Origin: a virus
Taxonomy: Duplodnaviria > Heunggongvirae > Uroviricota > Caudoviricetes
Virus record (IMG/VR): IMGVR_UViG_2695420685_000016
Span: 1-20,790 of that record
Reading direction: 5' to 3' (one strand)
DNA length: 20,790 bases
Each line of letters opens with the position of its first letter. Position 1 is the first letter of the stretch. The position numbers and the translations under genes are program-made. This document shows, in pieces, positions 15,619-16,453 of this stretch. The notes beneath the pieces are model-generated. The model had not been told where the DNA came from and did no database searches. It was given only the letters and a program-made list of their open reading frames with translations.

Positions 15619-15847
15619 TATTCCTCCTACAATCAATGTGCAATTACATTTAAACACACCTCAATTTGGCCGGACATATAAATATCTAAACCAGAAAAAA
15701 TCACTTACATAGCGTTACAAACTCTTTAGTCTAAATATTCATCGTAAAACATTCCCCATACTTATCAGCCCGTTCTGCGCCAGGTAGCTCATTGCCTTAT
15801 CTGGGAATCTGTAATCAGGTTTCCGGATGCTGGTGGATTTTCGCGTT

Positions 15848-16105
15848 TTAGTTGTTCATAAAAGTGCACAGCTTTAACCAGTTCTTCTGATGTAACCGGG
15901 ACTGGCGGGGCAGTGAATAAGGCCTGAATTTCATAGTTCGGCCTGTCGTTACAATCCTCTTTTTTCGGTACATATTTCCAGTCACCAGACCACTACTTCC
16001 CCTGAAAGTCCGTAACGCCTTTTTTTTCACGTAGCGATATCGCCATGCCACTGTTTTTGCTTGCCCCGCCGTTTCATGCCCTTCCTGATAATTAACCTCG
16101 CTCAT
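15848..16105 (-). CDS. Hypothetical small protein, possibly frameshifted (an alternative frame continues to 15790)
   Basis: Start overlaps the stop of the upstream small ORF (ATGA); Arg/Lys-rich, junk-like C-terminal half in the listed frame, whereas the -1 frame reads protein-like (...TSEELVKAVHFYEQLKREN...) but lacks a start; A8 run inside. Confidence 0.3.
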   Translation of the reverse strand: MSEVNYQEGHETAGQAKTVAWRYRYVKKKALRTFRGSSGLVTGNMYRKKRIVTTGRTMKFRPYSLPRQSRLHQKNWLKLCTFMNN

Positions 16106-16278
16106 TCATCGCCCCACTCATCACAATATGCTTCGACCGGAGTTTTTCCTGCTTCATAATCATCACGCCATGCTTCAGCATCAGCAGCACTGCCACCACG
16201 TAACTCTGCATAGTCCATTAACAGTTCATGCCATTCTTCAAAACTGACGTTGTATTTAGTTGAACCAAAATCAGCCAT
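16102..16278 (-). CDS. Small acidic protein (58 aa)
   Basis: Hand-translated MADFGSTKYNVSFEEWHELLMDYAELRGGSAADAEAWRDDYEAGKTPVEAYCDEWGDE; start overlaps the stop of the upstream ORF (ATGGCTGA); below the ORF-track cutoff. Confidence 0.4.
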   Translation of the reverse strand: MADFGSTKYNVSFEEWHELLMDYAELRGGSAADAEAWRDDYEAGKTPVEAYCDEWGDE

Positions 16279-16453
16279 TTTGTTCTTCCTCTTCGTCTTT
16301 TATTTCGTGATATGAGTAATTGCAGTAGTTAAAGAAAATATCTTTTGCTTCGTCATGTATTTCATCAGGCGTCGCATCATCATCCACTTCGAATTCATCC
16401 TCGAAATCTCCACCGGCTATTCCCGTTTCAATAATTATTTTAAACTTTCGCAT
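16271..16453 (-). CDS. Small acidic protein (60 aa)
   Basis: Product MRKFKIIIETGIAGGDFEDEFEVDDDATPDEIHDEAKDIFFNYCNYSYHEIKDEEEEQNG; a GC hairpin (CCGCCC-TTTC-GGGCGG) sits just upstream of its start. Confidence 0.45.
   Translation of the reverse strand: MRKFKIIIETGIAGGDFEDEFEVDDDATPDEIHDEAKDIFFNYCNYSYHEIKDEEEEQNG

What the first reader, a model, noticed from the sequence alone, without database searches (positions are those of the whole stretch)
15790..16453. Chain of translationally coupled small acidic ORFs in the nin-like region, one probably frameshifted
Three small ORFs are linked by overlapping stop/start codons (ATGGCTGA at 16271-16278, ATGA at 16102-16105). Two are strongly acidic (about 58-60 aa), a composition typical of DNA mimics and other anti-defence or host-takeover proteins. 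The third (15848..16105) has a junk-like Arg/Lys-rich C-terminal half, while the -1 frame is protein-like and runs to 15790. The locus also contains an A8/T8 homopolymer (16020-16027) that could mediate slippage.
Basis: partly seen in the sequence, partly recalled or inferred. Interest (0 to 1): 0.5.

Follow-up and report, generated by a model that had tools for sequence, protein, structure and literature searches.

The report
Two acidic prophage genes, one relic
This stretch of an E. coli lambdoid prophage holds two intact, very acidic small accessory genes of already catalogued but uncharacterised phage families, followed by a decayed gene broken by a deletion, a stop codon and a two-base expansion of an A-run; it is ordinary prophage content.

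Summary
On the minus strand, ORF-A (16271..16453, 60 aa), ORF-B (16102..16278, 58 aa) and a third ORF are joined by ATGGCTGA and ATGA overlaps, and an A8 run lies at 16020-16027. ORF-A is DUF7167 (PF23768, phrog_1997). ORF-B belongs to phrog_519. Both are conserved, strongly acidic families found in many temperate and virulent phages, with no known function. Predicted folds are a beta-hairpin plus helix with a disordered acidic tail (ORF-A) and a three-helix bundle (ORF-B). Neither matches a known DNA mimic or any characterised protein. The third ORF is a pseudogene, already marked "frameshifted; internal stop" in RefSeq. The shift sits exactly at the A-run: A6 in intact alleles, A8 here. Slippage at the run therefore cannot rescue the protein, so this is decay and not recoding. 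The prophage's Q antiterminator also carries a premature stop. The anti-defence or host-takeover role is plausible but untested. Interest is low.

The parts
16454..16484 (-). Translation-initiation element of ORF-A: AGGAGG, then a 6-7 bp GC stem with a GAAA loop (CCGCCC-GAAA-GGGCGG), then AGTTAA and the ATG
   Evidence: Sequence. The RNA fold gives the hairpin at -17.4 kcal/mol, z -2.3. The 33-nt element is identical in 7 related loci, including ArgO145, where the sequence further upstream is unrelated. A role in bringing the SD close to the ATG is inferred.
16271..16453 (-). ORF-A: 60-aa acidic protein of the DUF7167 family (identical to WP_001224662.1)
   Evidence: Pfam PF23768, E 7.9e-15. 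phrog_1997, E 9e-31. RefSeq annotation. Homologues in Klebsiella and Enterococcus phages. dN/dS about 0.1. AF2 model with pLDDT 78: strands 2-9 and 16-23, helix 29-46, disordered acidic tail.
16102..16278 (-). ORF-B: 58-aa acidic protein of phrog_519 (identical to WP_000753060.1). Its start overlaps the ORF-A stop (ATGGCTGA).
   Evidence: phrog_519, E 4.5e-23. No Pfam or NCBIfam match. 65 cluster representatives. 198 phage records. Conserved F13, W16, W37, Y41, G44, P47. AF2 model with pLDDT 87: three helices 13-27, 34-42, 47-55.
15739..16105 (-). ORF-C: multiply lesioned pseudogene of a phrog_660 / ead-Ea22-DUF551-associated gene. Its start overlaps the ORF-B stop (ATGA).
   Evidence: PGAP marks the same locus 'frameshifted; internal stop'. 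tblastn of the 171-aa homologue P0174 finds residues 1-28, 27-100 and 145-171 in three different frames.
16020..16027 (-). A8 run: a +2 expansion of the A6 (Lys-Lys) found in intact alleles. This is the frameshift site. The zero frame reads GTG AAA AAA AAG.
   Evidence: Alignment A1. Codon table. Intact proteins all read VKK[G/D/S].
15993..15995 (-). In-frame TAG nonsense codon in the conserved frame (Gln or Leu in intact homologues)
   Evidence: P0167 reads GKQW and P0159 reads GKLW at this site.
15742..15822 (-). Remnant of the ancestral C-terminus (KPDYRFPDKAMSYLAQNGLISMGNVLR) in a third frame, left by an internal deletion. Its stop is at 15739-15741.
   Evidence: tblastn to P0174 residues 145-171, E 4.8e-7.

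Best explanation
This is the accessory (nin-equivalent) part of the rightward early operon of a Qin/Rac-type lambdoid prophage of E. coli. It holds a mobile two-gene cassette: ORF-A (DUF7167) and ORF-B (phrog_519). The cassette is entered through its own ribosome-binding element. ORF-B initiation probably depends on ribosomes that terminate on ORF-A, because the ORF-B ATG overlaps the ORF-A stop and the SD-like GAGGA lies in the codons of ORF-A's acidic tail. Both products are small, non-enzymatic, strongly acidic folded proteins. By inference, they most likely act as stoichiometric binders or inhibitors of basic host or competitor proteins, that is, a dispensable host-takeover or counter-defence role. 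The third gene is dead. An ancestral gene of about 171 aa first lost an internal segment. It then acquired a TAG nonsense codon. In the lineage seen here, its A6 run then drifted to A8. What is shown: gene identities, family membership, conservation, predicted folds, the lesions and their likely order. What is inferred: translational coupling, the hairpin's role, and any binder or anti-defence function. I give the functional part about 0.4-0.5 on its own.
For: Context: replication genes, DUF977, a Zn-ribbon gene, the cassette, hok/sok, DUF968, RusA and Q. Cassette: the same ORF-A/ORF-B pair with identical overlaps and an identical 33-nt leader occurs in ArgO145 next to different neighbours. 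All 13 lambdoid-type phage records with ORF-A at 88% identity or more, 12 from Escherichia and one recorded as an Actinobacillus phage, also list ORF-B directly next to it. Real genes: Pfam and PHROG matches; homologues down to about 28-40% identity in Kuttervirus, T5-like, Klebsiella, Erwinia, Dickeya, Pseudomonas and Enterococcus phages; dN/dS about 0.1 for ORF-A; confident AF2 models. Acidity is a family trait: median net charge is -10 in 32 ORF-B relatives and -13 in 8 ORF-A relatives, and acidic residues are 50-80% conserved on the exposed faces of all three ORF-B helices. No catalytic family or defence-system match was found. Dispensable: in the deposited phage genome PhiR42_1, ORF-A carries an internal stop and ORF-C carries TAG. 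Pseudogene: RefSeq flags, alignment A1 and three-frame homology. Order of lesions: the TAG is shared by A6, A8 and A9 alleles with identical flanks. Allele-specific probes match 424, 339 and 14 of 5,426 complete genomes respectively. All intact homologues have Lys-Lys at the run. Decay elsewhere: the Q antiterminator has a premature TAA.
Confidence: 0.7

Rival explanations
1. The A8 run is a programmed recoding site. Ribosomal -1 slippage or transcriptional slippage at the run restores a functional full-length third protein.
For: The zero frame reads A_AAA_AAG, the same heptamer as the E. coli dnaX -1 site (dnaX from established knowledge). Run length is polymorphic: A6, A8 and A9.
Against: The -1 frame ends at TAG after nine codons, so the product would be 37 aa. 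The gene also has an internal deletion. Intact homologues have A6 and need no shift. There is no SD-like stimulator upstream, and the downstream fold is weak at -10.8 kcal/mol. RefSeq calls it a pseudogene.
Confidence: 0.03
2. ORF-A and/or ORF-B are DNA mimics that block restriction enzymes, RecBCD or other DNA-binding defence proteins, in the manner of Ocr, ArdA or T7 gp5.9.
For: Net charge is -15 over 60 aa and -12 over 58 aa, and acidity is conserved across both families, including exposed helix faces. ORF-A homologues sit next to an exonuclease (Klebsiella) or an ASCH/DUF3850 protein annotated as exonuclease (Enterococcus). Both genes are accessory and dispensable.
Against: There is no sequence or fold similarity to any solved DNA mimic. 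The monomers have only about 45-55 folded residues, so they are short for a DNA-like charge array unless they oligomerise. DNA mimics share no fold, so a negative fold search is weak evidence either way.
Confidence: 0.15
3. ORF-B is an anti-CRISPR protein.
For: phrog_519 members of five Kuttervirus phages were scored as Acr candidates by machine-learning tools (PMC9409062).
Against: That prediction rests on size and composition only and was not tested. The family occurs in many hosts with different or silent CRISPR systems. No Aca-like HTH neighbour is present here.
Confidence: 0.05
4. ORF-B is an accessory partner of NADAR ADP-ribosyl hydrolases and works in countering DNA ADP-ribosylation (DarT-type) defence.
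For: In T5-like phages an ORF-B homologue lies directly after a NADAR gene (IME392). In EP_H11 the two are one 218-aa ORF. Phage NADARs neutralise DarT toxins (PMC11825919, PMC11543638).
Against: The 'fusion' is a single stop-loss (TAA to AAA) that reads through the intergenic SD. It is not an evolved domain architecture. The adjacency was seen in one phage clade only. No NADAR gene lies near ORF-B in this window, in Stx phages or in Vi01.
Confidence: 0.05

Closest known systems
DUF7167 (Pfam PF23768; PHROG 1997)
   Same: ORF-A matches the model end to end (residues 2-53 of 60, 55 bits against a cut-off of 24.4) and is identical to RefSeq WP_001224662.1, 'DUF7167 family protein'.
   Different: Nothing differs. 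It is a plain member. The family has no known function.
PHROG 519 (uncharacterised small phage protein; Vi01_151c and ArgO145 gp14 are members)
   Same: ORF-B matches at E 4.5e-23 and shares the F-E-E-W ... A-W-R-x-D-Y-D-x-G-x-T-P ... W motif with relatives in many phage groups.
   Different: The PHROG profile is longer (143 positions) than the 50-60 aa domain. At least one long member is a NADAR read-through fusion.
PHROG 660 / ead-Ea22-like and DUF551-associated mosaic proteins of lambdoid phages
   Same: The reconstructed ORF-C matches phrog_660 (E 6.5e-27) and shares the PVAWRYRYVKKG...GDWKYVP...YEIQALF core with proteins of 104, 119, 148-149 and 169-171 aa. One of these proteins carries a DUF551 domain and one an Ea22-like domain.
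   Different: The window copy is a relic with an internal deletion, a TAG and a +2 frameshift.
Small genes of the lambda nin region (ninD, ninE, ninF and others)
   Same: Same position between replication genes and Q. They are small, overlapping, non-essential genes transcribed from the early rightward promoter (established knowledge).
   Different: No sequence match to Pfam or NCBIfam nin families. The similar sizes (60 and 58 aa) are coincidental.
Acidic phage DNA mimics and inhibitors (T7 Ocr, ArdA, T7 gp5.9, T7 Gp2)
   Same: Small size, strong conserved negative charge, no catalytic motifs, accessory status.
   Different: No sequence or fold similarity. No target is known. The resemblance is compositional only.
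dnaX A_AAA_AAG -1 frameshift site
   Same: The same heptamer lies in the zero frame at 16019-16025, minus strand.
   Different: The heptamer was created by expansion of the A-run in a gene already inactivated. The -1 frame terminates after nine codons. No stimulatory elements are present.

Membership tests
DUF7167 (PF23768) | Score above the Pfam gathering threshold over the whole domain | tested here: met
   55.1 bits against a cut-off of 24.4; residues 2-53 match profile positions 1-60 of 60. phrog_1997 matches positions 1-57 of 57.
PHROG 519 | Significant profile match and shared conserved aromatic and acidic motif | tested here: met
   E 4.5e-23. F13, W16, W37, Y41, G44 and P47 are conserved in at least 90% of 32 relatives.
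PHROG 660 / ead-Ea22-DUF551-associated module | Profile match of the conceptual product | tested here: met
   The reconstructed 105-aa product matches at E 6.5e-27. 328 homologues were found.
PHROG 660 / ead-Ea22-DUF551-associated module | Uninterrupted reading frame (functional member) | tested here: not met
   +2 at the A-run, TAG at 15993-15995 and an internal deletion. PGAP marks it as a pseudogene.
DNA-mimic proteins (Ocr, ArdA, gp5.9, Arn and others) | Surface array of carboxylates that imitates the DNA phosphate backbone, seen in a structure | not testable with these tools
   Only secondary structure and pLDDT were returned, with no coordinates for electrostatics. Acidity is conserved, but its geometry is unknown.
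DNA-mimic proteins (Ocr, ArdA, gp5.9, Arn and others) | Sequence or fold similarity to a known mimic | tested here: not met
DNA-mimic proteins (Ocr, ArdA, gp5.9, Arn and others) | Binding to and inhibition of a DNA-binding enzyme | not testable with these tools
   Needs biochemistry or plating assays.
Programmed -1 ribosomal frameshift (dnaX type) | Slippery heptamer X_XXY_YYZ in the zero frame | tested here: met
   A_AAA_AAG.
Programmed -1 ribosomal frameshift (dnaX type) | The shifted frame encodes a conserved, functional extension, and the site is conserved among homologues | tested here: not met
   The -1 frame stops after nine codons. Intact homologues have A6 and no shift.
Known anti-phage defence systems (PADLOC) | Profile match | tested here: not met
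   No hits for ORF-A, ORF-B, ORF-C or their neighbours.

The most novel reading that the evidence does not exclude
ORF-A (DUF7167) and ORF-B (phrog_519) are a portable two-protein counter-defence cassette. They would be polyanionic decoys that each neutralise a DNA- or RNA-binding host immunity protein. That would explain why these tiny acidic genes recur in unrelated temperate and virulent phages from Escherichia to Enterococcus.
Probability: 0.2. Interest if true: 0.55.

Novelty: already known. Interest (0 to 1): 0.15.

Why it matters
It matters little as a discovery. Both proteins and the pseudogene are already annotated, with identical sequences, in hundreds of RefSeq E. coli genomes. Two things have modest value. 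First, ORF-A and ORF-B are clean, compact, well-conserved families of unknown function with confident predicted folds and wide phage distribution. That makes them reasonable candidates for anti-defence or host-takeover screens. Second, the third gene is a clear example of stepwise decay, with one natural allele in which a second indel reopens the frame around the stop codon.

Tried and rejected

2. Literature. There is nothing for DUF7167, the WP accessions or the PHROG numbers, apart from a machine-learning Acr prediction for phrog_519. One apparent hit was a string artefact: 'phrog_5197' matched 'phrog_519'.

3. NADAR and ORF-B domain fusion as a functional clue. It was downgraded because the fusion in EP_H11 is a stop-codon loss between two adjacent genes.

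4. Hits of ORF-B to giant repeat proteins. These are Listeria-Bacteroides repeat or helicase proteins and were judged compositional.

5. Programmed frameshifting. Rejected because of the TAG in the shifted frame.

6. RNA elements. No Rfam family lies in 15400-16550, and no promoter- or terminator-like site lies on the coding strand there.

8. ORF-B dN/dS could not be estimated because the available alleles are too similar.

Full report
**Observation**

The genes here lie on the minus strand. ORF-A is 16271..16453 (60 aa). ORF-B is 16102..16278 (58 aa). A third ORF of 85 aa is 15848..16105.

The reverse complement of 16271-16278 is ATGGCTGA, and that of 16102-16105 is ATGA. A T8 (coding-strand A8) lies at 16020-16027.

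ORF-A has 20 acidic against 5 basic residues. ORF-B has 16 against 4. Both have pI 4.05. The 85-aa ORF has pI 11.1 with a Lys/Arg-rich C-terminal half. Every stated feature is real.

**Context**

The 1.56 kb around the finding is 99.9% identical to chromosomal prophage DNA in many E. coli genomes. Parts of it occur in 2,705 of 5,426 complete genomes.

In RefSeq the gene order is:
- ydaS/ydaT-type regulators and replication genes
- DUF977
- a Zn-ribbon protein
- DUF7167
- a 58-aa hypothetical protein
- a pseudogene marked "frameshifted; internal stop"
- hokD
- DUF968, RusA and the Q antiterminator

Rfam finds sok at 15174-15349.

**ORF-A**

- It is a full-length member of Pfam DUF7167 (55 bits, cut-off 24.4) and of phrog_1997. 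It is identical to WP_001224662.1.
- Relatives at 40-70% identity occur in Klebsiella phages and in Enterococcus herelleviruses.
- Between two E. coli allele types, dN/dS is about 0.1.
- AlphaFold2 on a shallow alignment gives pLDDT 78. The model has two strands (2-9, 16-23), one helix (29-46) and a disordered acidic tail.

**ORF-B**

- It has no Pfam or NCBIfam family but matches phrog_519 (E 4.5e-23). It is identical to WP_000753060.1.
- An exhaustive HMMER search finds 65 cluster representatives, many of them 48-65 aa at 28-63% identity.
- tblastn finds it in 198 phage records. These include Stx2a phages, Kuttervirus and Ag3-like phages, T5-like phages and Klebsiella phages.
- The alignment shows a conserved aromatic core (F13, W16, W37, Y41) plus G44 and P47.
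- AlphaFold2 gives a confident three-helix bundle (pLDDT 87).

**Acidity and linkage of ORF-A and ORF-B**

Acidity is a property of both families, not of this copy alone. The median net charge is -10 for ORF-B relatives and -13 for ORF-A relatives. Acidic residues are 50-80% conserved at exposed positions of all three ORF-B helices.

The two genes travel together in E. coli lambdoids. In Stx phage ArgO145 the same pair has the same 8-nt overlap, and the 4-nt overlap leads into a different third gene (ead/Ea22-like, 211 aa). The pair lies in a different part of that genome. Outside enterobacterial lambdoids each gene occurs without the other, so they are not an obligate pair.

**Leader element**

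A 33-nt leader precedes ORF-A: AGGAGG, a GC stem with a GAAA loop, then AGTTAA and the ATG. It is identical in seven loci, including ArgO145, where homology ends just upstream of it.

With the hairpin folded, the SD would lie about 6-7 nt from the ATG. This is inference. It resembles the split SD arrangements of T4 genes 38 and 25, which I cite from memory.

No promoter-like or terminator-like site was found on the coding strand between 15400 and 17000. The genes are therefore presumably read from the early rightward transcript.

**The third gene**

The reconstructed product matches phrog_660 (E 6.5e-27). An intact 104-aa allele exists (WP_001529162.1), and 328 homologues were found. Listed lengths include 104, 119, 148-149 and 169-171 aa. 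One of these proteins has a DUF551 domain and one an Ea22-like domain. They share a PVAWRYRYVKKG...GDWKYVP...YEIQALF core. The frame listed for the C-terminal half of the 85-aa ORF is therefore not the conserved one.

Alignment with related loci shows where the lesions are:
- Intact alleles have A6 (Val-Lys-Lys-Gly). The window has A8. One genome has A9.
- The restored frame holds TAG at 15993-15995, nine codons after the run. Homologues have Gln or Leu there.
- tblastn of a 171-aa homologue finds its residues 1-28, 27-100 and 145-171 in three different frames. The last piece lies at 15742-15822 (E 4.8e-7). An internal deletion has therefore also occurred, and the relic extends to a stop at 15739-15741, beyond the RefSeq feature.
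- The 104-aa "intact" allele shares that deletion, so it is itself a truncated derivative.

**Order of events**

Allele-specific probes of 74-77 nt match exactly as follows, out of 5,426 complete genomes:

| Allele | Genomes with an exact match |
|---|---|
| A6 + TAG | 424 |
| A8 + TAG | 339 |
| A9 + TAG | 14 |

The TAG is shared by all three run lengths with identical flanks, and every intact protein has Lys-Lys at the run. The simplest reading is that the nonsense mutation came first and the run then drifted in length without selection.

**Recoding**

The A8 makes the zero frame read A_AAA_AAG, the dnaX slippery heptamer. A -1 shift there would yield only a 37-aa product ending at the TAG. 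No stimulatory elements are evident. Programmed frameshifting is rejected.

One natural allele (L015) is identical to the window except for a single extra T just after the TAG. The +2 and +1 changes together reopen a 105-codon frame that passes the TAG out of frame. This is a curiosity and may be a rare revertant or an assembly error.

**Other signs of decay and dispensability**

The window's Q antiterminator has a premature TAA at 12844-12846 in an otherwise 99.3% identical gene. In the deposited phage genome PhiR42_1, ORF-A has an internal stop and ORF-C has the TAG.

**Function**

Nothing known matches ORF-A or ORF-B. The only published remark found is a machine-learning prediction of phrog_519 members as anti-CRISPR candidates in Kuttervirus phages (PMC9409062).

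A NADAR and ORF-B "fusion" in T5-like phage EP_H11 looked promising, because NADARs counter DarT toxins (PMC11825919, PMC11543638). It turned out to be a stop-codon loss between two adjacent genes that are separate in phage IME392.

The best-supported inference is that these are non-enzymatic, polyanionic binders with an accessory host-takeover or counter-defence role. The specific DNA-mimic idea remains possible but has no positive support.

**Verdict**

- The frameshift call is right and was precisely placed, but it is decay and not recoding.
- The small acidic genes are ordinary members of catalogued, uncharacterised phage families.
- Novelty: already known. Interest: low.

Noticed in passing
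window 16454-16484 (-): AGGAGG lies 26 nt from the ORF-A ATG. Between them is a 6-7 bp GC stem with a GAAA tetraloop, which would bring the SD to about 6-7 nt from the start if folded. The 33-nt element is invariant and moves with the cassette, including into Stx phage ArgO145.
   Followed up: partly
window 15439-15618 (-): A 59-aa ORF, not annotated in the RefSeq records examined, with a perfect SD (AGGAGGaataATG) and two predicted hydrophobic helices (MKNALQFLFVAFWLF...). It has no Pfam, PHROG, NCBIfam or PADLOC hit. It was found only in three closely related E. coli phages, where it is annotated 'hornerin' or hypothetical.
   Followed up: partly
window 12844-12846 (-), within the Q gene 12328-13149: The Q antiterminator carries a premature TAA at codon 102 of 273 (Tyr in the 99.3% identical WP_000762890.1). 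The prophage is probably defective for late gene expression.
   Followed up: yes
L015 1501-1818 (GCA_054890285.1): This allele is identical to the window's third gene except for one extra T right after the TAG. With the A8 (+2) this reopens a 105-codon ORF that bypasses the stop through a 10-residue out-of-frame patch. P0237 shows a second, different frame-restoring variant.
   Followed up: partly
L008 1006-1662 (phage EP_H11) and L012 503-1162 (phage IME392): In T5-like phages an ORF-B homologue follows a NADAR (PF08719) gene. In EP_H11 a TAA to AAA stop-loss fuses the two into a 218-aa ORF that reads through the intergenic SD.
   Followed up: yes
L009 3001-4525 (Klebsiella phage VLCpiS11a); L010 2471-3171 (Enterococcus phage MDA2): Distant DUF7167 homologues overlap the start of a PD-(D/E)XK/DUF2800 exonuclease gene (Klebsiella) or the end of an ASCH/DUF3850 protein gene (Enterococcus). 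This is a possible association with nucleic-acid processing genes.
   Followed up: partly
L002 2067-2249 (E. coli cq9) and L005 2153-2335 (phage PhiR42_1): The DUF7167 gene has an internal stop (HDGA*EIFF) in these two, one of which is a deposited phage genome. The same two carry a 57-nt insertion in the third gene.
   Followed up: no
window 15024-15349 (-), 11045-11234 (-), 11934-12184 (-): A hok/mok with sok antisense RNA (Rfam 112 bits), the sRNA STnc100 (132 bits) and two tRNA genes lie in the same prophage.
   Followed up: no
window 16547-16960 (-): The Zn-ribbon protein upstream of the cassette (phrog_1621) is annotated as 118 aa in RefSeq, while the longest ORF here is 137 aa from a GTG. 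In related prophages this slot holds a SAM-dependent methyltransferase instead (L002, L005).
   Followed up: no
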